Shown here one piece after another: positions 37,291-47,400 of a stretch of DNA of 64,000 bases. Within the stretch, counting starts at the first letter, position 1. Each line of letters starts with the position of its first letter. Source of the DNA: Sphingobacteriales bacterium (lineage in GTDB: Bacteria > Bacteroidota > Bacteroidia > Chitinophagales > JADIYW01). The position numbers were made by a program, and so were the translations under genes. A model generated the notes under the pieces. The model had not been told where the DNA came from. It did not search any database and saw only the letters and a program-made list of their open reading frames with translations. The stretch is taken from assembly GCA_016699615.1 (NCBI GenBank), contig CP064984.1:2383855-2447854 (forward strand), read 5' to 3'.

Positions 37291-37704
37291 TTAGCAATAT
37301 TCTTCGTATGCAGCAACTAAATTGTCTGCTATCATTTTGGCTGGTCTTCCTTCTATCATATGTCTTTCGATGAAGTGTACCAACTTGCCATCTTTGAACA
37401 ATGCAATGCTTGGTGAGCTTGGTGGATAAGGAAATGTAAGCTCTCTTGCTTTTGCAACAGCTTCGCTATCTACACCAGCAAATACAGTTGCTAATTTGCT
37501 TGGTTTTTTTTCTGCTTCAGTAGAAATAATTGCAGCTGGACGTGCATTTGCAGCAGCGCAACCACAAACTGAATTAATGACTAAAAGCACTGTTCCTTCA
37601 GATTGAGCAACAACTTCTGTTACTTCGTCTGCTGTTTTTAATGCTTGAAAACCTTTTGATGTTAATTCGGCTTCCATTGGTTTGGTTAAGTGTTCTGGAT
37701 ACAT
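37291..37704 (-). CDS. Bacilliredoxin, BrxA/BrxB (YphP/YqiW, DUF1094) family
   Basis: ..VLLVINSVCGCAAANARPA.. CGC redox motif and ..PSSPSIALFKDGKLVHFIERH.. family pattern. Confidence 0.8.
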   Translation of the reverse strand: MYPEHLTKPMEAELTSKGFQALKTADEVTEVVAQSEGTVLLVINSVCGCAAANARPAAIISTEAEKKPSKLATVFAGVDSEAVAKARELTFPYPPSSPSIALFKDGKLVHFIERHMIEGRPAKMIADNLVAAYEEYC

Positions 37705-37869
37705 ATTTGTGTATTTTGATAATTAAGTAATAAAATATTTTAATAAAGATGTTCAAAAATTGTGCTATGGTTTTTCTATGTCAATTTGTCTTTTTTATTT
37801 GAAATTTTAATTCTTGGATTTATGAATTATACAGTAATAATTTCATTATTACATTGCTCCATTATTAAA

Positions 37870-38202
37870 TTATAAAAACCCAAGTTCTAATTTTGCTTCT
37901 TCAGTCATCATATCTTGATCCCAAGGTGGGTCGAAAAGTAATTTCAACATTGCAACTTCATTTACGCCATCAATTGCTTTTATTTTTTGCTCTACTTCAG
38001 CTGGCAAACTTTCTGCTGCTGGACAGTTTGGTGCTGTTAATGTCATTAATATATGCACGTCATTGTTTAGATTTACGTTTATTTCGTAGATTAATCCTAA
38101 TGCATATATATTTACTGGAATTTCTGGATCGTAGATAGTTTGTATCTGAGTGATACATTCGTCTTTAATTTCCATAAAAGTTTTATTTAATACATTTTCC
38201 AT
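37870..38202 (-). CDS. Fe-S assembly protein, DUF59/SufT (MIP18) family
   Basis: ..IYDPEIPVNIYALGLIY..MTLTAPNCPAAE.. is the hallmark DUF59 motif. Confidence 0.8.
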   Translation of the reverse strand: MENVLNKTFMEIKDECITQIQTIYDPEIPVNIYALGLIYEINVNLNNDVHILMTLTAPNCPAAESLPAEVEQKIKAIDGVNEVAMLKLLFDPPWDQDMMTEEAKLELGFL

Positions 38203-38221
38203 ATGAATGAATAACTATTTT

Positions 38222-38638
38222 CTAATTTGAATGTGCTATTGCGTAATATTTCATTTGCTTTATCATGCTTACTAAGCCATTGGCACGAGTAGGTGATAAG
38301 TGCTCTTTTAATCCTATTTCTTCTATAAAATATAAGTTTGCTTCGGTGATTTCTTTTGGTGTGTGTCCACTCAAAACTTTTATCAATAATCCAATAATGC
38401 CTTTGGTAATTATTGCATCACTATCTGCATAAAAAAATATTTTGCCATCTTGTATTTCAGAATGCAACCATACTCTACTTTGACAACCATGTATTCTGTT
38501 TTCTTCTGTTTTATACTGTTCATCAATTAATGGCAAAGACTTTCCAAAATCAATTAGATATTCGTATTTGTCATTCCAATCATCATACATGGAAAAGTCT
38601 GCTATAATTTCATCTTGTATTTCGTTTATGCTGCTCAT
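38222..38638 (-). CDS. sufE: SufE-family sulfur acceptor
   Basis: ..NRIHGCQSRVWL.. conserved-Cys motif; 138 aa. Confidence 0.85.
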   Translation of the reverse strand: MSSINEIQDEIIADFSMYDDWNDKYEYLIDFGKSLPLIDEQYKTEENRIHGCQSRVWLHSEIQDGKIFFYADSDAIITKGIIGLLIKVLSGHTPKEITEANLYFIEEIGLKEHLSPTRANGLVSMIKQMKYYAIAHSN

Positions 38639-38679
38639 TATTTTTGCAAAATTATATTTTATATTTCAGTAGAATTAAT

Positions 38680-39573
38680 TTATTTATCTCTTCTGAGAAA
38701 GTATACACCAATTAATATTAAAACTACACCCAATATATCAGAAATATTTAATGGTTCTTTTCCAACTAATACGCCAATAAATATGGCAACAATTGGTGTA
38801 ATGTAAGTTACAGACGCTGCTTTAACTGCACCCATCTTATCAATGATATAGTAATAAATTAAAAATGAAATACCTGTTCCTAAGATAGCAAGACCAAGTA
38901 TTGTTTCAATTGTTATGGTTAGGTTCTGAAATATTTTATCAATTCCACTAAATGGTGTAATGAATAATAATATTATGGTTGCACTTACCAATTGATAGGT
39001 TGTTAATGCAATGCCTGATATTTTTAAAGGTGTGATGAATTTTCTAGCATAGATAAATGATGCACTAAATGATAATGCTCCAATCATCATAAATGATATT
39101 CCTTTTAATGTGTTGCTGTCAAATTCAGCATCAAATGGTTTTGAAAGTACTATTATTCCAATTATTCCAAGTAATAATCCAATACTTCTGCTTTTAGTAA
39201 TACTTACTTCTTTAATAAATAATAAACTAAGTATAAATGTAAAAATTGGTACTGTTCCACTTATAGAACCAGCAATGCCAGAATATAATAAATGTGAGCC
39301 AATAACAAAGCAGAATAAATAAATGACTCCAGCTAATAATGACATAGCTAAAAAGTGATACCAATATTTTAAATGATGTACACTGTATGATTTGTTTATT
39401 ATTCCATAAATAATAAGTGGTATTATAGATATTGAAATTCTTAAAAAAACAACTTGAATTGTAGAAATATATTCTGTTGCATTCTTCATAAATAAAAAAT
39501 TGCTTCCCCAGAATAATCCAAGTAATAGAAATGCAATGTTTGAGTTTATATCTTGTTTTAAATTTTTGTACAC
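38680..39573 (-). CDS. EamA/DMT-family transporter
   Basis: About 10 TM segments as two EamA repeats; 297 aa. Confidence 0.75.
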   Translation of the reverse strand: MYKNLKQDINSNIAFLLLGLFWGSNFLFMKNATEYISTIQVVFLRISISIIPLIIYGIINKSYSVHHLKYWYHFLAMSLLAGVIYLFCFVIGSHLLYSGIAGSISGTVPIFTFILSLLFIKEVSITKSRSIGLLLGIIGIIVLSKPFDAEFDSNTLKGISFMMIGALSFSASFIYARKFITPLKISGIALTTYQLVSATIILLFITPFSGIDKIFQNLTITIETILGLAILGTGISFLIYYYIIDKMGAVKAASVTYITPIVAIFIGVLVGKEPLNISDILGVVLILIGVYFLRRDK

Positions 39574-39590
39574 AATATTATTTTATAGTT

Positions 39591-40810
39591 TTAACTCAAC
39601 ATTTTTTTTGCTTTTAAAATTCCATCATACAATAAATCTATTTCTTCTTTCGTATTATAAAACGCAAAAGATGCTCTCGTGTTCCTGGTATAGAATAAAA
39701 ATCCATCACTGGTTGCGCACAATGGTGTCCTGTTCTGATGGCAATGCCCATATTGTCTAAAATAACGCCAACATCATACGGATGAATACCATCTAACAAA
39801 AATGAAATAACAGATGATTTATTTGTTGCTGTACCATAAATTTTTAATCCATCTATTGATGATAATTTCTCTGTGGCATATTGCAATAATTCGTCTTCGT
39901 ATTTTTTTATATTTTCTAAACCTAAATTTTCTATATATTCTATTGTTGCGTTAAGTGCAATGCAGCCAGCAATATTTGGTGTTCCAGCTTCAAACTTAAA
40001 TGGCAAATCATTAAAAACTGTACCTTTGAATGATACAGATTTTATCATATCTCCACCACCTTCAAATGGTGGTATTTCGTTTAGTATATCTTCTTTTCCA
40101 TATAATATTCCAGTACCTGTTGGTCCATAAATTTTATGGCCACTAAATGCTAAAAAATCACAATCTAATGCTTGAACATCAATTGAAATATGTTGTATAG
40201 CTTGTCTTGCATCTATCAATATTTTCGCATTATTTTTTTTAGCTATCGCAATAATTTCTCTTATTGGATTGATAGTACCTAATGCATTAGATACATACGT
40301 AATTGATACTAATTTTGTTTTTGTTGTAATGATTTTTTCTGCATCTTCAATTTTAATACTACCATCTTCTTGCAATGGAATTACTTTTAAGATACATTTT
40401 TTTTCTTCGCACAGCATTTGCCATGGCACAATATTAGAATGGTGTTCCATTTCTGTCACCACAATTTCATCACCTTCATGAATAAATTTTTTACCAAAAG
40501 TATAGGCAATCAAATTTATACTATTTGTTGTACCTTTTGTAAATATTATTTCGTGCTCATGTTTTGCATTGATAAATTGTTGAACTTTTTTCCTTGTTTG
40601 TTCGTATAAATCTGTGCCAATTTGCGATAGGTAATGCACACCACGATGTATGTTTGCATTTTGATGTTCGTAGAAATATGTTTCAGCATCAATTACTGCT
40701 TGTGGCTTTTGAGTTGATGCGCCATTGTCTAAATAAACAAGTTGCTTGCCACGAATTTTTTCATTTAATATTGGAAATTGATTTCTTATATGTTGTATGT
40801 CTAATGCCAT
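39591..40810 (-). pseudogene. sufS: Cysteine desulfurase SufS, with a frameshift about 30 codons from the C-terminus (~39671-39686)
   Basis: ..YLDNGASTQKP.., ..FSGHKIYGPTG.. (PLP Lys), ..RTGHHCAQP... The alternate frame gives the expected tail ..ASFAFYNTKEEIDLLYDGILKAKKMLS* ending at 39591. Confidence 0.88.
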
Positions 40811-40875
40811 TGTATATTAATTAGCTATTGTATTTTTCCTTATAATAAACACTCGAGTTTATCTTTTTTCATGGC

Positions 40876-42123
40876 TTAAATATTTAATTTTGCCTCAACA
40901 GCTTCGATAAGATAGTTGCAAGAATCTTTGCTGTCTACTTTTTCTATTACTTCTTCAGCAAATGCAATCGTTAATAATGCTCTTGCTTTTTCTTTTCCAA
41001 TGCCACGTGCTTGCAAATAAAATAATTCTGTATCTTCAATTTGTGCAATTGTAGCACCATGCGAACATTTTACATCATCAGCAAAAATTTCTAATTGTGG
41101 CTTAGTATAAATATTTGCTTTGTCATTAATAATAATGTTTTTATTGCTTTGAAATGCATTTGTTTTCTGAGCAATTTGGTCTACTAATATTTTTCCATTA
41201 AATACGCCAGTAGCTTCTCCATCTACAATTCCTTTGTACAATTCATTGCTATTGGTGTTTGGTTGGTTATGATTTACTTTGGTTCTATTGTCACAATGCT
41301 CATGTCCGTTCAACAAGTACAAACCATTCATATTGCATTCAGCATGCTCGCCATTGATGTCTACAACTAAGTTGTTTCTTGTAATTGCACCAGAAACTGT
41401 AATTGTGTTTACTGTAAATATCGATGATTTTTCTTGCTGTACAAATGTATTGTCTGTAATATAAAATTGTTGTTTTCCATTTTGAATTTTATCCCATTTT
41501 ACAATACTATTTTCATGTATAGAAATGTTATTTACAATGTTGTAGTATGTTTTTAAATGATTTGGATTGATATAATATTCTGTGAAATGTACTTGTGTTT
41601 TTTTAGCAATATTTATTTTGTGTTTTAAATTGATGATTTGATCTGATTTTGTTGCTATATATAATATTGCTATTGCTTTTTCTTCTTCAAAACTTTTATC
41701 AATATTTATGTTGATGCCATCAGAGCTCAAAGCATTATTTAATTCTAATAAAAAATCTTTGGTAGCTTGTTCTTCTATGTTATTGCTATTCCAAAATGTA
41801 AACTTTGGTGTGTTTGGTATGTAAGATAATTCTGCAATAAAAACACCATCTACAAAAACAATTTTATATGTTGCATTGAATTGTGTTTCTATATGATTTT
41901 TAATTTCATCTATAGTACCATCACTCAACTTATATGCATCATCTGCTTTGCTTGTGATATTGCTGAAATTATTGTCAATAATCTTATTGTAATAAGTATA
42001 TTTCCATTCTTCATTTTTCATTGATGGAATGCCAATGCTTATTGCATTCAATAAAGATTGCTGTTGTTTCTTATCAATTATGTTTGGTAGTAAACTTTTA
42101 AGTATGTCTGTATTTGAATTCAT
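40876..42123 (-). CDS. sufD: Fe-S cluster assembly protein SufD
   Basis: 415 aa. C-terminal ..QLEIFADDVKCSHGATI..LFYL..RGI.. pattern, in suf context. Confidence 0.88.
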   Translation of the reverse strand: MNSNTDILKSLLPNIIDKKQQQSLLNAISIGIPSMKNEEWKYTYYNKIIDNNFSNITSKADDAYKLSDGTIDEIKNHIETQFNATYKIVFVDGVFIAELSYIPNTPKFTFWNSNNIEEQATKDFLLELNNALSSDGININIDKSFEEEKAIAILYIATKSDQIINLKHKINIAKKTQVHFTEYYINPNHLKTYYNIVNNISIHENSIVKWDKIQNGKQQFYITDNTFVQQEKSSIFTVNTITVSGAITRNNLVVDINGEHAECNMNGLYLLNGHEHCDNRTKVNHNQPNTNSNELYKGIVDGEATGVFNGKILVDQIAQKTNAFQSNKNIIINDKANIYTKPQLEIFADDVKCSHGATIAQIEDTELFYLQARGIGKEKARALLTIAFAEEVIEKVDSKDSCNYLIEAVEAKLNI

Positions 42124-42138
42124 TAATTTGATAATTCG

Positions 42139-42498
42139 TTAATTTGATAATGGTTTTTTTGATGTGGCAATTATTTTTGTTGTAATTTTTTTTATTTCAA
42201 ATAATTGTTCAATTAATTCTTTACTTGTAGGATAGCCGTCAGAATGTTCACAAATTAATAACCAATATTCTGTTTCTTCAATTTCTTTCGCAGCAATTTT
42301 TAGTTTATGAATGAAATCTGATTTGCTTTCTGCGTTTTGTGCTTCTCTAATATTTGCACCTATTGATGTTCCCGATTTTAATAACTGTCTTGCAATAATA
42401 TATTTCCTATCATTTTCTAATAATGTAACATACTTTACTATTTGTAAAGCAAATTGAAAAGATTTTTGAACAATGATATTATCTTCTGTTTTTTGCAT
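42139..42498 (-). CDS. Four-helix-bundle protein (23S rRNA intervening-sequence protein / Avd family), inserted between sufC and sufD
   Basis: 119 aa with ..QLLKSGTSIGANIREAQNAESKSDFIHKLKIAAKEIEETEYWL.., the signature of this family. Confidence 0.85.
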   Translation of the reverse strand: MQKTEDNIIVQKSFQFALQIVKYVTLLENDRKYIIARQLLKSGTSIGANIREAQNAESKSDFIHKLKIAAKEIEETEYWLLICEHSDGYPTSKELIEQLFEIKKITTKIIATSKKPLSN

Positions 42499-42532
42499 AA
42501 TTACTTCATTAACGAATTAATGAATTGATAAA

Positions 42533-43279
42533 TTATTTAATTAATTCATATTCCTCGTATCCTTTTTCTTCTAGTTCTAATGCTAGATTTTTATCGCCAG
42601 TTTTTACAATTTTACCATCATACATCACATGTACAAAATCTGGAACTATATAATCTAATAATCTTTGGTAGTGTGTAATAACAATAAATGCATTGTCTTT
42701 AGAATGTAACTTATTTACGCCATTAGCTACAATACGCAATGCATCAATGTCTAACCCAGAATCTGTTTCATCTAAGATAGCAAGCTTTGGATCTAACATT
42801 GCCATTTGGAAAATTTCGTTACGTTTCTTTTCGCCACCTGAAAAGCCAACATTTACAGAACGAGAAATAAAATCTTTTTTCATTTCTACCAATTCCATTT
42901 TTTCACGCATTAATTTCAAAAATTCATTTGCTGGCATAGGTTCTTCGCCATTAGATTTGCGTTGTTCGTTGATGGCAGCTTTTAAGAAATTTGCATTGCT
43001 CACACCAGGAATTTCTACTGGATATTGAAATGCCAAGAACAAACCTTTTTGCGCACGTTCATGTGTTTCTAATTCTAATAAATTCATTCCATCAAACTTG
43101 ATGGTGCCTTGTGTAATTTCATAGCCTTCTTTTCCAGCAAGCACATTTCCCAGTGTAGATTTTCCTGTTCCGTTTGGTCCCATGATAGCGTGTATTTCGC
43201 CTTTGTTTACTGTTAAAGAAAATCCTTTTAAGATTTCTTTATTGTCAATTGATACGTGTAAGTTGTTTATTTTAAGCAT
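42533..43279 (-). CDS. sufC: Fe-S cluster assembly ATPase SufC
   Basis: Walker [13 protein letters not shown] signature FSGGEKKR, Walker [11 protein letters not shown]. The start is placed at MLKINNLHV; the track's 22-codon extension reads into an intergenic repeat. Confidence 0.9.
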
Positions 43280-43299
43280 GATGTTGTTGTTCAATTTTT

Positions 43300-43412
43300 T
43301 AATTAGCGAATTTTTTACTACAAAGTTCGCAAAGTTGATTCGCAAAGTTCACAGAGTGAGATTTTGCTATGAGTTCTTTGTGTATTCCGAAGTTTCGGAA
43401 CTTAGTGTGCTT
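43300..43412 (-). repeat. Structured intergenic element: TTCGCAAAGTT x2 (43326-43336, 43339-43349) plus palindrome TTCCGAA-GT-TTCGGAA (43385-43400)
   Basis: Direct repeats with a 13-nt period and a 7-bp inverted repeat, read directly from the sequence. The element translates to the '..NFANFVVK..' pseudo-peptide that extends the sufC ORF. Confidence 0.5.
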
Positions 43413-43419
43413 TGTGGTT

Positions 43420-44205
43420 TCATTTTTCATGTTTTATATCGAATAGTTTTTCATATTTATTGAATGATATTTCACTTTGGCTAAATGAAAAATACAATAG
43501 TTTACAATTTTCATCATTAGGATTTTTCTCCAAATATACCACCAAAGACTGCTTTAACATTTTAAAAGGTGTTTTATATTTATTCATTTCATTAAATAAA
43601 TTTTTCTTTAAATAATTATCAATATTTTCACTTTCGTGTAAATATTCAAATAATACAGTCATGCCAAAATCTACATTTATAATATCCAGACATAATGCCT
43701 TAAATTTTGGTGAGTATGTGTCGATTTTTTTATTTAATATTCTATTAGTCAATTCAAATATTGCATATGAAGATTTAAATATTTCGCCTTCATCATAAAA
43801 CATTAAGTTGTCATATAAATGTAATATTCTATTGTATTTACTCAGAGCGATTCCATATTGTTTTTCTGAAAGATTATTTATCTTTTCATCCTCTATGATT
43901 TTAAGTTGAATTTCATTAGCTTTTTTTTGTTCCTTAAATGCTATATAAACTAAAAATGCTGAAAAAAATGCTATTATTGGACCAATAATTCCTCCAATTG
44001 TATGACCTATTTCATTTGGATCTAATATTTCTTTTTCGTTATATAGTAATGAAGTTATTATAAATATAGATGCAACTATTATTATAATTAATATAAAAAT
44101 TAGAATAAAGCTATAAAGCAAGTTGTTTGAAACCCATTCTAAAATATGCTTGTCATTTTCTTGTAATTTTTTTTGATATTTATTAATAAATATTTTCATT
44201 TTCAA
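43420..44205 (-). CDS. Hypothetical 2-TM membrane protein, possibly putAbiC-like (abortive-infection family), inserted between sufB and sufC
   Basis: Two N-terminal TM helices flank ..NEIGHTIGGIIGPIIAFFSAFLVYIAFKEQ.., which resembles the G-x-x-GG-x3-P motif I associate with the putAbiC family. The C-terminus is helical. G+C is lower than in the flanking suf genes. The ATG at 44199 is an alternative start. Confidence 0.35.
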   Translation of the reverse strand: MKMKIFINKYQKKLQENDKHILEWVSNNLLYSFILIFILIIIIVASIFIITSLLYNEKEILDPNEIGHTIGGIIGPIIAFFSAFLVYIAFKEQKKANEIQLKIIEDEKINNLSEKQYGIALSKYNRILHLYDNLMFYDEGEIFKSSYAIFELTNRILNKKIDTYSPKFKALCLDIINVDFGMTVLFEYLHESENIDNYLKKNLFNEMNKYKTPFKMLKQSLVVYLEKNPNDENCKLLYFSFSQSEISFNKYEKLFDIKHEK

Positions 44206-44226
44206 ATTATCACATTTACAAATTAA

Positions 44227-45674
44227 TTATCCAACACTACCTTCTAAGCTTATTTCTAATAATTTTCTGGCTTCTACGGCAAATTCCATTGGCAAGTATT
44301 CATTACTTCTTTTACAAATCCATTCACTATCATGGCTACTGCAGTTTCTTGGTCAATTCCTCTCTGTTGAAAGTAGAATAATATGTCTTCGCCTATTTTT
44401 GATGTAGTTGCTTCGTGCTCTACTTTCGCAGATTTGTTACTTACTTCCAAATATGGAAATGTATGTGCGCCACATTGGTTGCCCATTAATAATGAATCGC
44501 ATTGAGAAAAATTGCGTGCATTTTCTGCTTTGCTATGTACTTTTACCAAACCACGATAAGCATTTTGTGATTTTCCTGCAGAAATACCTTTTGATACAAT
44601 TCTGCTTTTAGTGTTTTTGCCAATATGTATCATTTTGGTGCCTGTGTCTGCTTGCTGAAAATTGTTAGTTACAGCAACAGAATAAAATTCTCCAATAGAA
44701 TTATCGCCAGCCAAAATGCAACTCGGATATTTCCAAGTAATAGCAGAACCTGTTTCTACTTGTGTCCATGAAATTTTACTATTATTACCTTTGCAAATTC
44801 CACGTTTAGTTACAAAATTATAAATGCCACCTTTACCATCTTTATCACCTGGATACCAATTTTGTACTGTGCTGTATTTTATTTCTGCATTTTCTAATGC
44901 AATTAATTCAACTACTGCTGCATGCAATTGGTTTTCATCGCGCTGTGGTGCTGTACAACCTTCTAAGTATGATACATATGAACCTTCGTCTGCAATAAGT
45001 AATGTACGCTCAAATTGTCCACTACCAGCTTGGTTTATTCTAAAATAGGTGCTTAGTTCCATTGGACAACGAACACCTTTTTGAATATAACAGAATGAAC
45101 CATCAGAAAATACGGCACTGTTTAATGCAGCATAGTAATTGTCTTTTTGTGAAACAACTGATCCAATATATTTTTGCACCAATTCGCCATGGTCACGTAT
45201 TGCTTCACTCATAGAACAAAATATAATGCCTTTGTCTTTCAATGTTTGTTGGAATGTTGTTTTTACAGAAACAGAATCAAACACAACATCAATTGCTACA
45301 CCAGATAGTCTTTTTTGCTCGTCTAATGATATACCAAGTTTTTCAAATGTTTTTAGTAGCTCTGGATCTACTTCATCTAAACTGTTGAGTTCTTTCTTTG
45401 GTTTTGGTGCAGAATAGTAAATAATATCTTGAAAATTTATTTTTGGAAAATGCACATTTGCCCAAGTTGGCTCAGTCATTTTTTGCCATTGTCTAAATGC
45501 TTTTAAACGCCATTCTAACATCCAGTTTGGTTCTTCTTTTTTTGCAGAAATGAATCTTATGATATCTTCATTTATACCTTTTGGTGTGGTTTCTGCTTCA
45601 ATATTTGTTGTAAAACCGTATTTGTATTCCGAATTTACGACTACATCTAATATTTCATCTTGAGTTTCTTGCAT
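44227..45674 (-). pseudogene. sufB: Fe-S cluster assembly scaffold SufB, with a frameshift about 22 codons from the C-terminus (~44286-44305)
   Basis: Typical SufB throughout. The ORF ends ..[13 protein letters not shown], but the alternate frame gives the canonical tail [22 protein letters not shown] ending at 44227. Confidence 0.9.
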
Positions 45675-45676
45675 AA

Positions 45677-45711
45677 CTAATAATTATTAGCGTATTACCT
45701 AATATTAGGTA
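45677..45711 (-). promoter_or_regulatory. Two adjacent perfect palindromes in the sufB leader: CTAATAATTATTAG (45677-45690) and TACCTAATATTAGGTA (45696-45711); candidate operators
   Basis: Both are exact inverted repeats sharing the half-site CTAATA/TATTAG. They lie between a -7 box and the sufB ATG. Confidence 0.45.
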
Positions 45712-45719
45712 CAAATTTA
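45712..45719 (-). promoter_or_regulatory. Candidate -7 box for the suf operon (TAAATTTG on the minus strand)
   Basis: Matches TAnnTTTG and directly abuts the 16-bp palindrome. Confidence 0.35.
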
Positions 45720-45909
45720 CGAAGATTTATTGTAGAAAAACAGATTAATTTAGATTTAATCTAAATAGTTTCATTTTGTTAATGTTAAATATTAACTGTC
45801 TTTACATTGTACATAGATTTTACTGTTGGATGCATCACTCGTTTTTCTTTGCTGAAATAAATTAACATATTTATTTGCTTTATAATCTAATATTTTATTA
45901 TTATCTTTT

Positions 45910-45917
45910 TATATTTG
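45910..45917 (+). promoter_or_regulatory. Candidate -7 box TATATTTG
   Basis: Matches TAnnTTTG 22 nt upstream of the ATG at 45940. Confidence 0.3.
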
Positions 45918-45939
45918 ATATTTATTTCTATTTTGAATT

Positions 45940-47400
45940 ATGAATGATTTATTTTTTTTAATCCATTCGTTGTCTGCCAATGAAAAAAGATACGTGACTT
46001 TGTATATCAATAGGTTTAGTAATACAAAAAATAATTATTCAAACTTATTCAACACAATTTCAAAAGACATCAATTGTAATGATGATGTAATTATAAAAAA
46101 GCACAGAAAAGATGCATTTATACAAAATTTGTCAGTAACAAAACATTATTTATTTAAGATAATTCTTAATGCAATGTGCGAATATTTCGATGAACAATTT
46201 ATTGATTGGAAGTTAAGGAATCAATTGTCGCATATTTTTGTTTTAACATCAAAAGGATTAGATAAAACAGCACATAAGATGATGCTTAAAACAAAAGAAG
46301 AAGCTGCAAAGTATGAGAATTATTACATCTTGTTGGAGGTAATAAATCATGAACGTTGGTTGTATGGCAATAGAAGAATTATGCAGAAAGATAAGAATTA
46401 TGGCATTCAACTATGCAATGAAGAAAAATCTATATATGATATCTTAAATAAATTACATCAATACAGAGAAATTTGGCATCAGTTAAATAGTGTTGAGCTT
46501 TCGCAACACCAGATGGACAATACTACGTATATTAATAAAATACATGATATAGTCAATGTTGACGCATTAAAGGAAATTCCAACATCTGATTCATTCACAA
46601 TTAAAACTTGGTATTTTTCATGTTTAGCACATTATTATACACTTATTGATGATGCAGAACAACACTTAAAATATTATAAAGAAGTAATACTATTGCGCGA
46701 AAATCAATTTGCATCAAATCCATCAGCTCCAATTGATTTATTTGCGATATTTTATAATTATATGCTAGCATGTTACAAAAGTAAGAATTGGGAAGAGTTG
46801 AAAATTTATTTAGATAAAATATTGCAAGTTGAAGCTAAAACGATTGAAAAAAAGATAAAACTATTCCATGATTATTATCATTGTAAATTATTGTATCTTT
46901 TAGGTACAGAAGAATACATAGATATAGATTTAGTCTTGAATGAAGTAAAAAAAGGTTTGGCGTTATACCAAGAAAGAATAAGAACAGATTTTTTGATTTT
47001 AATTTTGCAATGTTCTGGGTTACTTTGTCTATTTAATAAAAGGTATAAAGAGGCAAATGCATGGTGGCAAAATGTTGTACACATTGAAAAAACAAACATA
47101 GAAATAAAAACACAATGTGCCGTTCATATATATATGCTCATGCTTTCTGTTGATGAGCAGGATTATGATGTATTAGAATATCAAATAAATACAGCAACAA
47201 AATTTTTAAAAGATAATAATCAATACAATAAATCTGAAGAATTATTATTGAAGTCTTTTAAAAAAATATCTAAAAACAAAAACAAACAAAAAGTGTATTT
47301 TTCTGATGTATATCATGAAATATCTAATATAAATAAAGGTAACTTGGTAACCATAATTGATGATTTTATTCTAAAATGGTTGAATCAGAAATTAAACTAA
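45940..47400 (+). CDS. Hypothetical all-alpha (TPR-like) protein, 486 aa
   Basis: Long intact ORF, predicted helical and repeat-like. No motif I can assign. Divergent from the suf operon. Confidence 0.5.
   Translation: MNDLFFLIHSLSANEKRYVTLYINRFSNTKNNYSNLFNTISKDINCNDDVIIKKHRKDAFIQNLSVTKHYLFKIILNAMCEYFDEQFIDWKLRNQLSHIFVLTSKGLDKTAHKMMLKTKEEAAKYENYYILLEVINHERWLYGNRRIMQKDKNYGIQLCNEEKSIYDILNKLHQYREIWHQLNSVELSQHQMDNTTYINKIHDIVNVDALKEIPTSDSFTIKTWYFSCLAHYYTLIDDAEQHLKYYKEVILLRENQFASNPSAPIDLFAIFYNYMLACYKSKNWEELKIYLDKILQVEAKTIEKKIKLFHDYYHCKLLYLLGTEEYIDIDLVLNEVKKGLALYQERIRTDFLILILQCSGLLCLFNKRYKEANAWWQNVVHIEKTNIEIKTQCAVHIYMLMLSVDEQDYDVLEYQINTATKFLKDNNQYNKSEELLLKSFKKISKNKNKQKVYFSDVYHEISNINKGNLVTIIDDFILKWLNQKLN

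What the first reader, a model, noticed from the sequence alone, without database searches (positions are those of the whole stretch)
42133..44226. The suf operon is interrupted by two unrelated genes, one a possible abortive-infection-type membrane protein
The gene order on the minus strand is sufB - [261-aa 2-TM protein] - sufC - [119-aa four-helix-bundle protein] - sufD - sufS. sufBCDS is normally contiguous. The first insert has visibly lower G+C than its neighbours (about 23% versus about 27-42% in sampled 60-nt lines). It carries an N-terminal TM pair around ..IGHTIGGIIGPIIAFFSAFLVYIAFKEQ.., a motif I associate with the putAbiC family of predicted phage abortive-infection proteins. A structured repeat element follows it. 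Accessory or defence-like cargo embedded co-directionally in an essential, highly expressed operon is unusual. It would guarantee expression and make loss difficult.
Basis: partly seen in the sequence, partly recalled or inferred. Interest (0 to 1): 0.6.

Follow-up and report, generated by a model that had tools for sequence, protein, structure and literature searches.

The report
Selfish gene cassettes inside suf operon
The iron-sulfur (suf) operon of this Sphingobacteriales genome really is interrupted by unrelated genes, but this is routine in its phylum: one insert is an rRNA-intervening-sequence-like selfish cassette, and the other is an uncharacterised, phage-associated membrane protein with a hypervariable tail that does not match the proposed Abi families in any profile search.

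Summary
The minus-strand order is sufB, a 259-aa 2-TM protein ("TM261"), sufC, a 119-aa four-helix-bundle protein, sufD, sufS. A third insert (an EamA transporter) lies before sufE-sufT.

"Unusual" is wrong for this phylum. Of 54 Bacteroidota suf loci showing all four genes, only 20 have contiguous sufBCDS. The closest relative (SufC 93%) carries an unrelated membrane ORF plus a PIN toxin pair at sufB|sufC, and nothing at sufC|sufD.

The 119-aa gene is PF05635/TIGR02436. It is bracketed by inverted repeats forming a ~23-bp stem that covers the sufC stop and the sufD start. This is the anatomy of ORF-bearing 23S rRNA intervening sequences, here in an mRNA spacer. Such flanks are specific to these cassettes (p = 6e-9).

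TM261 does not match Pfam putAbiC, nor PADLOC AbiC at any convincing level. It belongs to a large unannotated family (at least 2,327 clusters; 41/57 match phrog_8999). The family has a conserved small-residue zipper in TM2 and a cytoplasmic domain that is unalignable between strains with 95-100% identical flanks. It occurs in prophages and scattered loci with no constant partner.

An Abi-like or exclusion role is plausible but unproven.

The parts
45712..45719 (-). TAAATTTG, a Bacteroidota-type -7 promoter-like motif about 38 nt upstream of the sufB ATG. It is the likely operon promoter (inferred).
   Evidence: No such motif lies in the intergenic spacers between sufB and sufD on this strand.
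44227..45674 (-). sufB. An apparent 1-nt deletion near 44285-44295 makes the listed ORF stop at 44274. The conserved C-terminus [22 protein letters not shown] continues in another frame to 44227.
44200..44226 (-). Spacer between sufB and TM261. It is homologous to the left arm (AATTTGAAAAT units plus a TTGAAAATG start) of the IVP cassettes that occupy sufB|sufC in L052/L064/L084, and so looks like a relic 'solo arm'.
   Evidence: Alignment. Among the 78 loci examined at this position, the motif occurs only in the three IVP-bearing loci (L052/L064/L084), L008 and an ORF-less relic in L079, not in insert-less spacers. There is no complementary right arm.
43420..44199 (-). TM261, a 259-aa protein (IPK18_11465, 'hypothetical'). 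It has an N-in 2-TM hairpin, a conserved small-residue zipper in TM2 (G65, G69, G73, A77, A81) with invariant P74, Q91 and N95, and a helical cytoplasmic C-domain.
43282..43427 (-). A locus-specific conserved element of about 145 nt. It contains a hairpin at 43384-43401 and AACTTTGCGAA direct repeats (two full copies plus a partial third) at about 43313-43357. Its function is unknown.
   Evidence: It is conserved at the same slot in L008 (nhmmer 6e-33). All three repeat units there read AACATTGCGAA, a concerted change. There was no Rfam hit and no other copy in the window or in the other 179 loci.
42533..43279 (-). sufC.
   Evidence: TIGR01978 2e-112.
42117..42534 (-). IVS-like cassette of 418 nt. 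The 5' arm is 42534..42508 and overlaps the sufC stop. The ORF is 42498..42139 (PF05635/TIGR02436). The 3' arm is 42143..42117 and overlaps the ORF stop and the sufD ATG.
   Evidence: a 23-bp closing stem appears in both the MFE and the centroid structure; PDB 2RLD, 2.3e-24.
40876..42123 (-). sufD.
   Evidence: SUFBD_core 2e-72.
39591..40810 (-). sufS. An apparent 1-nt deletion near 39655-39675 puts the conserved C-terminus RASFAFYNTKEEIDLLYDGILKAKKMLS* in another frame.
38680..39573 (-). Third non-suf insert, a 297-aa EamA-family transporter.
   Evidence: PF00892 5.7e-39.
37870..38638 (-). sufE (38638..38222) and a SufT-like FeS_assembly_P gene (38202..37870), the distal end of the operon.

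Best explanation
The suf operon of this Sphingobacteriales MAG is a landing pad for small accessory and selfish genes, as it is across Bacteroidota. Steps are marked 'shown' or 'inferred'.

**1. The 119-aa gene is the ORF of an IVS-like cassette.**
- Shown: it encodes a PF05635 four-helix-bundle (Avd/S23p-like) protein.
- Shown: the ORF is enclosed by terminal inverted repeats that pair into a ~23-bp stem.
- Shown: this is the same anatomy as the ORF-bearing intervening sequences of 23S rRNA, but here it sits in the sufC-sufD mRNA spacer.
- Inferred: in the polycistronic transcript the stem forms, sequesters the sufD start codon, and is a candidate RNase III substrate. The cassette would persist as a near-neutral selfish element.

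**2. TM261 sits on the relic left arm of a former cassette of the same kind at sufB|sufC (shown).**
- Shown: it is a stand-alone member of a very large, unannotated, partly phage-borne family.
- Shown: its 2-TM hairpin is conserved, with a small-residue zipper in TM2, and its cytoplasmic helical domain is hypervariable between near-identical strains.
- Inferred: the zipper helix mediates homo-oligomerisation in the inner membrane.
- Inferred: the variable domain senses a fast-evolving partner such as a phage protein. This would make it an Abi-like or superinfection-exclusion effector.
- Inferred: it is transcribed by read-through from the suf promoter.

The structural and evolutionary parts are well supported. 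The defence function is a hypothesis.
For: **Gene order and identities:**

**The junctions are hot-spots:**
- Gaps of more than 300 nt occur at B|C in 37/78 loci, C|D in 6/77, D|S in 20/55 and S|E in 23/41.
- The inserts are diverse: NlpE_C-like proteins with lipoprotein-type leaders, MBL hydrolases, FMN reductases, PIN, PDDEXK_3 and IVP.
- All 15 distinct IVP genes in the 80 suf loci lie at suf junctions: upstream of sufB, B|C or C|D.

**IVP arms:**
- A stem forms between 42534..42508 and 42143..42117.
- The flank-duplex z-score has a median of -2.1 for 20 IVP cassettes against 0.06 for 74 other inserted ORFs. Mann-Whitney p = 6e-9; 55% against 1% fall below z = -2.
- The rRNA IVS precedent is a 428-nt element carrying an S23p ORF, with a 28-bp terminal stem cut by RNase III (PMC4990558).

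**TM261 family:**
- At least 2,327 50%-identity clusters match at E<=1e-3.
- 41/57 members match phrog_8999.
- Viral contigs carry the family next to a portal gene and a primase gene. One homolog lies beside an integrase/primase island with AbiH, and another beside a Gp49/HTH toxin-antitoxin pair and a transposase.
- N-terminal identity is 0.66 against 0.19 for the C-terminus.
- L005 and L006 have flanks 95-100% identical and the first 290 nt of the gene 89-96% identical, but the remaining ~500 nt are only 31-51% identical.
- Zipper positions 65/69/73/77/81 are G/A/S in 82-100% of 57 members.
- The AF2 model is confident: pLDDT 89.6.

**Cassette turnover:**
- The window and L008 share the left spacer, including the start codon, and the right element, but hold unrelated ORFs.
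- The left spacer is homologous to the left arms of the L052/L064/L084 IVP cassettes.
Against: - No experimental or transcript data exist, so co-transcription, stem formation and RNase III cleavage are all inferred.
- The window's stem is A-U rich and only moderately better than shuffles (z = -2.1).
- TM261 has no significant match to any defence model, to any solved structure or to any viral model.
- Its neighbours in 80 metagenomic loci are mostly housekeeping genes with no enrichment of defence genes. There were 111 families among 150 neighbours.
- Its closest relatives occupy one conserved slot upstream of an enoyl-CoA hydratase gene in five genomes. This looks more like vertical residence than mobility.
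- GC3 is not atypical.
- Hypervariability could reflect relaxed constraint.
- The 80 suf loci are the best SufC matches and are biased towards Flavobacteriales.
Confidence: 0.55

Rival explanations
1. One reading: TM261 is a member, or a recognisable remote relative, of the putAbiC/AbiC abortive-infection family and acts as such.
For: The architecture fits: an N-terminal TM pair followed by a helical domain of about 250 aa. One of 57 family members gives a weak PADLOC AbiC hit (E=0.0035) and another a weak AbiP hit (E=0.0009). Relatives occur in prophages.
Against: There was no PF16872 hit in any of four Pfam scans covering 67 family members, three of them at E<=10. PADLOC gave nothing for the window protein beyond a chance-level CARF_TM hit (E=0.14). 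The single weak hits are at the level expected from 57 searches. NCBI names the protein 'hypothetical'.
Confidence: 0.1
2. TM261 is an ordinary, dispensable membrane protein with no role in conflict. Its variable tail reflects weak constraint, and it merely sits where insertions are tolerated.
For: Neighbourhoods are heterogeneous and mostly housekeeping. There is no defence-model match. Codon usage looks native. Many other innocuous genes also sit in suf junctions, including NlpE_C-like proteins with lipoprotein-type leaders, FMN reductase and MBL hydrolase.
Against: The C-domain keeps a confidently predicted common fold (pLDDT above 90), yet it is replaced wholesale between strains whose flanks are 95-100% identical, with sharp boundaries inside the gene. 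That pattern indicates allele swapping, not drift. The family also recurs in phage genomes.
Confidence: 0.25
3. The inserts are functional accessory components of Fe-S cluster assembly in this lineage.
For: They are co-directional and tightly spaced within the operon.
Against: The sister genome has different genes at one slot and none at the other. TM261 homologs sit in acyl-CoA catabolic operons, prophages and unrelated loci. IVP cassettes occur at varying suf junctions and in other operons.
Confidence: 0.03
4. The arrangement is an assembly artefact of a long-read MAG.
For: sufB and sufS each show a probable single-base indel error.
Against: The protein is annotated on a 2.99-Mb contig. An independent genome (L008) has the same slot, the same left spacer and the same right element. 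Both inserted ORFs are intact and have many homologs.
Confidence: 0.02

Closest known systems
ORF-bearing intervening sequences (IVS) of 23S rRNA (Leptospira, Coxiella; S23p/PF05635 ORF)
   Same: The length is about 420 nt. The element carries a single PF05635 four-helix-bundle ORF of about 120 aa, and its terminal inverted repeats form a stem of about 23-28 bp that encloses the ORF. Distribution among related genomes is sporadic.
   Different: It sits in an mRNA intergenic spacer (sufC|sufD), not in helix 25/45 of 23S rRNA. The arms overlap a stop codon and a start codon. RNase III excision is untested here.
Avd accessory protein of diversity-generating retroelements
   Same: According to the literature, Avd belongs to the same structural family as PF05635 proteins (CDD cd16375).
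   Different: The immediate neighbours are sufC and sufD, not a reverse transcriptase or template/variable repeats. The wider window was not searched for these.
putAbiC (PF16872) / lactococcal AbiC abortive-infection proteins
   Same: A single-gene protein of about 250-340 aa with N-terminal transmembrane helices and a helical remainder. Relatives occur on phages and mobile elements.
   Different: No profile match. No phenotype is known.
phrog_8999 (phage protein family of unknown function, profile length 270)
   Same: The window protein matches at 3.9e-6 over the TM region. 41/57 family members match, the best at 6.4e-14. The lengths are similar.
   Different: The PHROG has no annotation, and the match covers only the N-terminal third of the window protein.
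Small dispersed gene families of Bacteroidota operon spacers (PDDEXK_3/GxxExxY, small GIY-YIG)
   Same: They occupy the same kind of position, co-directional between operon genes, in L008 and L091.
   Different: They have different folds. Whether they share the flanking-arm architecture was not examined systematically.

Membership tests
Pfam putAbiC (PF16872) | Match to the family HMM at or near the gathering score. | tested here: not met
   No hit for the window protein (E<=1), for 9 close homologs (E<=10), for 57 diverse members (E<=0.01) or for 10 members (E<=10). HMMER's filters may hide very weak matches, and whether PF16872 is present in this library copy was not independently verified.
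Pfam putAbiC (PF16872) | N-terminal pair of transmembrane helices. | tested here: met
   Hydrophobic segments lie at about 25-52 and 66-88, and the AF2 model shows the corresponding helices. This feature is not specific to the family.
AbiC / other Abi models (PADLOC-DB 2.0) | Match to a defence-protein HMM. | tested here: not met
   The window protein's only hit is CARF_TM at E=0.14. Among 57 members there are single weak hits to AbiC (0.0035), AbiP (0.0009) and Csx28 (4.7e-5), each in one member only.
Abortive infection systems in general | Phage-triggered growth arrest or death of the infected cell. | not testable with these tools
   This requires phage challenge of an expressing host.
23S_rRNA_IVP / four helix bundle protein (PF05635, TIGR02436) | HMM match above the curated cut-off. 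| tested here: met
   PF05635 scores 85.6 bits against a cut-off of 33.8. TIGR02436 scores 96.2 against 24. PDB 2RLD matches at 2.3e-24.
23S rRNA intervening sequence element | Terminal inverted repeats forming a stem that encloses the ORF. | tested here: met
   A 23-bp stem forms between 42534..42508 and 42143..42117. The feature is class-wide: p = 6e-9 against other inserts.
23S rRNA intervening sequence element | Located within a 23S (or 16S) rRNA gene helix. | tested here: not met
   The element lies between sufC and sufD. There was no rRNA or Rfam hit in 37500-46500.
23S rRNA intervening sequence element | Excision from the transcript by RNase III. | not testable with these tools
   This needs RNA end-mapping in wild type against an rnc mutant.
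DGR accessory protein Avd | Adjacent reverse transcriptase and template/variable repeats. | tested here: not met
   The flanking genes are sufC and sufD. The wider window was not searched for a reverse transcriptase or template/variable repeats.
SUF Fe-S assembly operon | sufB, sufC, sufD, sufS, sufE and a sufT-like gene co-directional in one cluster. | tested here: met
phrog_8999 | HMM match. | tested here: met
   The window protein matches at 3.9e-6, and 41/57 family members match.

The most novel reading that the evidence does not exclude
IVS-type cassettes (short repeat-unit arms enclosing an ORF) may be a general class of element that colonises the intergenic spacers of highly expressed Bacteroidota operons. 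On this reading their arms are processed at the RNA level, and their ORF slot can be taken over by other cargo. At sufB|sufC the same left arm and start codon precede an IVP gene in three genomes, TM261 in this one, and an unrelated 2-TM ORF in the sister genome. The slot would then work as a small gene-exchange platform that supplies constitutive expression to hypervariable membrane defence genes.
Probability: 0.12. Interest if true: 0.8.

Novelty: new variant of a known kind. Interest (0 to 1): 0.5.

Why it matters
**PF05635 proteins.** These are among the commonest 'hypothetical' small proteins of Bacteroidota and have no known function outside DGRs. If they travel as IVS-like stem-enclosed cassettes inside mRNA operon spacers, and not only inside rRNA, this gives a concrete prediction that can be tested. 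The prediction is RNase III processing of polycistronic mRNAs at cassette arms, with consequences for sufD translation. It would also give a rule for recognising the cassettes and their ORF-less relics.

**TM261.** The result defines a large protein family that is absent from Pfam. The family has a clear modular logic: a conserved zipper-type TM hairpin plus a strain-variable cytoplasmic domain. That makes it a reasonable candidate for screening as a single-gene phage-exclusion system.

**Annotators.** The practical message is that interrupted suf operons in this phylum are normal and should not be flagged on their own.

Tried and rejected
**TM261 searches that found nothing useful**
- Pfam, PADLOC and NCBIfam scans of TM261 found no meaningful family.
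- tblastn of TM261 and of homolog P0156 against the phage and plasmid collections gave no match.
- Foldseek of the AF2 model against PDB and BFVD found nothing below E=0.08.
- A PDB sequence-profile search returned only designed coiled coils.

**Literature**
- Searches for putAbiC, PF16872 and phrog_8999 found no paper.
- Searches for PF05635, TIGR02436, the four-helix-bundle protein name and GxxExxY found none on operon-spacer IVP cassettes.

**RNA and promoter scans**
- Rfam on 37500-46500 gave only a chance miRNA hit.
- The sigma-70 promoter scan is uninformative for Bacteroidota.

**The ~145-nt element**
- An exact-pattern scan of metagenomes for its repeat found nothing.
- It has no other copy in the window or in 179 other loci, so a dispersed REP or MITE identity is not supported.

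**Ideas tested and dropped**
- That TM261 is a complete arm-flanked cassette: rejected, with flank-duplex z = +0.6.
- That low G+C marks recent import: rejected on GC3.
- That the L008 203-aa ORF is a divergent TM261: rejected (BLASTP E=2.2; no HMM hit).
- A search for a precise target-site duplication of the IVP cassette failed, because the sufC-sufD spacers of the window and L008 are not alignable.
Full report
**Source and observation**

The window comes from a MAG labelled 'Sphingobacteriales bacterium'. The 259-aa protein is identical to IPK18_11465, annotated 'hypothetical' on a 2.99-Mb contig. ORF listing and HMM scans confirm the gene order on the minus strand:

- sufB
- a 259/261-aa ORF (TM261; 44199/44205..43420)
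- sufC (43279..42533)
- a 119-aa ORF (42498..42139)
- sufD
- sufS
- an EamA transporter (39573..38680)
- sufE
- a SufT-like gene

TM261 has 21.9% G+C, the lowest of 46 ORFs in the window. Its GC3 (16%) lies within the background of 21 +/- 5.5%, so composition gives no evidence of recent import. A -7-type motif, TAAATTTG, lies upstream of sufB. No such motif lies in the spacers before the inserts, and the sufB-TM261 spacer is only 27 nt. Co-transcription is therefore likely, but it is inferred.

**Is an interrupted suf operon unusual?**

It is not unusual in this phylum. I fetched 80 Bacteroidota suf loci using SufC as the query and mapped the suf genes onto them.

| Junction | Loci with a gap of more than 300 nt |
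|---|---|
| sufB\|sufC | 37/78 |
| sufC\|sufD | 6/77 |
| sufD\|sufS | 20/55 |
| sufS\|sufE | 23/41 |

Only 20 of the 54 loci that show all four genes have contiguous sufBCDS. The occupants are diverse:
- proteins of about 135 aa with an NlpE_C-like domain and lipoprotein-type leaders
- metallo-beta-lactamase-fold proteins
- FMN reductases
- outer-membrane-like proteins
- PF05635 genes

The sample is biased towards Flavobacteriales.

The closest relative is L008, a Chitinophagales MAG with SufB 92% and SufC 93% identical.
- At sufB|sufC it carries an unrelated 203-aa 2-TM ORF, followed by an 87-aa ORF and a PIN_3 toxin.
- Its sufC|sufD junction is empty.
- It has a PDDEXK_3 gene before sufT.

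The arrangement is therefore inserted and fast-changing, not ancestral.

**The 119-aa gene**

The gene is a clear PF05635/TIGR02436 'four helix bundle / 23S rRNA intervening-sequence protein'. It matches PDB 2RLD at 2.3e-24.

Folding the region shows a 23-bp closing stem in both the MFE and the centroid structure. The stem forms between 42534..42508, which overlaps the sufC stop codon, and 42143..42117, which overlaps the ORF stop and the sufD ATG. It encloses the whole ORF and defines a 418-nt cassette.

The same architecture recurs around PF05635 genes in other loci. The arm sequences are unrelated, each built from its own short repeat unit. The upstream/downstream duplex z-score has a median of -2.1 for 20 cassettes, against 0.06 for 74 other inserted ORFs (Mann-Whitney p = 6e-9).

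This is the anatomy described for the ORF-bearing IVS of 23S rRNA. In Coxiella the IVS is a 428-nt 'selfish' element carrying an S23p ORF, with a 28-bp terminal stem cut by RNase III (PMC4990558).

All 15 distinct PF05635 genes in the 80 suf loci sit at suf junctions: upstream of sufB, B|C or C|D. None lies in the flanking sequence. The window's only PF05635 gene is the one in suf.

My reading is that this is an IVS-like selfish cassette resident in an mRNA spacer. RNase III processing and masking of the sufD start codon are predictions, not results. The held literature calls the protein functionally uncharacterised and Avd-like. I found no paper describing operon-spacer cassettes of this kind.

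**TM261: what it is not**

Four Pfam scans gave no putAbiC hit. They covered the window protein, 9 close homologs at E<=10, 57 diverse members at E<=0.01, and 10 members at E<=10. PADLOC gave only a chance-level CARF_TM hit (E=0.14) for the window protein. Among 57 members it gave isolated weak hits, each in a single member: AbiC 0.0035, AbiP 0.0009 and Csx28 4.7e-5. The precomputed Pfam annotation of all database homologs is empty. Remote homology below HMMER's reach could not be tested, because the AlphaFold-database fold libraries were unavailable.

**TM261: what it is**

*Family size.* A profile search finds at least 2,327 50%-identity clusters at E<=1e-3. Nearly all are 220-280 aa.

*Conserved N-terminal module.* This comprises TM1, a short acidic loop and TM2.
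- In TM2, positions 65/69/73/77/81 are G/A/S in 82-100% of 57 members, forming a small-residue zipper.
- P74, Q91 and N95 are invariant.
- The positive-inside rule places both termini in the cytoplasm.

*Fast-evolving C-terminal domain.*
- The AF2 model is confident (pLDDT 89.6). It shows a long helix continuing from TM2 into a helical bundle.
- Mean pairwise identity is 0.66 in the N-terminal part against 0.19 in the C-terminal part among close homologs.
- Two contigs from one metagenome (L005 and L006) are 95-100% identical over 7 kb of flanks, and 89-96% identical over the first 290 nt of the gene. They are only 31-51% identical over the remaining ~500 nt, and identity recovers immediately after the stop codon.
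- That pattern is allele replacement with a breakpoint inside the gene, as seen at loci under conflict-driven diversification.

*Phage association.* 41/57 members match phrog_8999, a phage family of unknown function. Four IMG/VR contigs carry relatives. In one, two tandem copies lie 2 kb from a portal gene. Another lies near a primase.

*Other contexts.*
- One homolog sits beside an integrase/primase island with AbiH.
- One is in a phage-like block.
- One lies beside a Gp49/HTH pair and a transposase.
- The closest homologs sit in a fixed slot upstream of an enoyl-CoA hydratase gene in acyl-CoA catabolic operons of five genomes. Those operons also contain PF05635, PDDEXK_3 and GIY-YIG genes between their genes.
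- In 80 metagenomic loci the neighbours are heterogeneous and mostly housekeeping, with no constant partner.
- No solved or viral structure resembles the model.

*Mechanism I favour (probability about 0.4).* TM261 is a stand-alone inner-membrane effector. Its zipper helix drives oligomerisation, and its variable cytoplasmic domain recognises a fast-evolving ligand such as a phage protein. That would make it Abi-like or exclusion-like in function without being a member of the named Abi families. The main rival (about 0.25) is a dispensable membrane protein with no conflict role.

**The sufB|sufC slot**

Aligning the window with L008 shows three things:
- sufB's 3' end and the spacer up to and including the start (TTGAAAATGAAA) are conserved.
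- The two ORF bodies are unrelated.
- An element of about 145 nt after the ORF is conserved (nhmmer 6e-33).

L008 then has the PIN module, which the window lacks. The conserved left spacer is homologous to the left arm of the PF05635 cassettes that occupy sufB|sufC in L052, L064 and L084. Their ORFs are 62-65% identical to the window's own PF05635 protein. Among the 78 loci examined at this position, the arm motif occurs only in those three cassette-bearing loci, L008 and an ORF-less relic in L079. It is absent from insert-less spacers. TM261 has no complementary right arm (z = +0.6).

TM261 thus appears to sit on the relic of a former IVS-like cassette whose ORF was replaced. ORF-less arm relics occur in several other suf spacers as well.

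The ~145-nt element has a 7-bp hairpin and AACTTTGCGAA direct repeats: two full copies and a partial third. In L008 all three units read AACATTGCGAA, a concerted change. Its function is unknown. It has no Rfam match and no other copies.

**Caveats**

sufB and sufS each show a single-base deletion relative to L008 that shifts the conserved C-terminus out of frame. In a long-read MAG these are most likely errors, but they are unverified. All functional statements about expression, RNA processing and defence are inferences.

**Verdict**

The phenomenon is ordinary for the phylum. The Abi-family label is not supported. Two features are worth following up: IVS-like PF05635 cassettes in mRNA spacers, and a large unannotated 2-TM family with a strain-hypervariable domain.

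Noticed in passing
window 44270-44300 and 39650-39680 (minus strand): sufB and sufS each have an apparent 1-nt deletion relative to the sister genome. This puts their conserved C-termini ([22 protein letters not shown]; RASFAFYNTKEEIDLLYDGILKAKKMLS*) in another frame. These are probably long-read assembly errors, but could be real truncations.
   Followed up: partly
window 38680-39573 (minus strand): A third non-suf gene, an EamA-family transporter, sits between sufS and sufE.
   Followed up: partly
window 43282-43427; L008 1656-1789: A conserved element of about 145 nt follows the variable ORF. Its AACTTTGCGAA repeat units (two full copies plus a partial third) all read AACATTGCGAA in the sister genome, a concerted change. 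No other copies were found anywhere searched, and its function is unknown.
   Followed up: partly
L008 1013-2445 and 7903-8310: The sister genome's suf operon carries an unrelated 203-aa 2-TM ORF, an 87-aa ORF plus a PIN_3 toxin (a likely toxin-antitoxin pair), and a PDDEXK_3 (GxxExxY-type) gene between suf genes.
   Followed up: partly
L005 8001-8732 vs L006 8001-8798: Two contigs from one metagenome are 95-100% identical in their flanks, but the 3' two-thirds of the TM261-family gene is unalignable, with sharp boundaries. This is strain-level allele replacement of the C-terminal domain.
   Followed up: yes
L091 3154-11907; also L001, L093: Acyl-CoA carboxylase / enoyl-CoA hydratase / acyl-CoA dehydrogenase operons of related bacteria are peppered with small co-directional genes (GIY-YIG, TM261 homolog, PDDEXK_3, PF05635). 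The suf operon is therefore not the only colonised operon.
   Followed up: no
L097 5962-7491: An IMG/VR viral contig carries two tandem TM261-family genes about 2 kb from a portal-protein gene.
   Followed up: partly
suf spacers of L079, L076, L038/L061, L041, L060/L080: These sufB-sufC spacers contain short ORF-less runs of the same repeat units that flank PF05635 cassettes elsewhere. They look like relics of lost cassettes.
   Followed up: no
L008 3235-3335: The empty sufC-sufD spacer of the sister genome contains a different hairpin-forming repeat (CGTCATTTCGAG ... TCGAAATGACG).
   Followed up: no
window 45940-47400 (plus strand): A divergently oriented 486-aa ORF upstream of sufB gives a sub-threshold, full-length match to the BT2802 ribose-utilisation family (1.8e-23; 83 bits against a cut-off of 550).
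   Followed up: no
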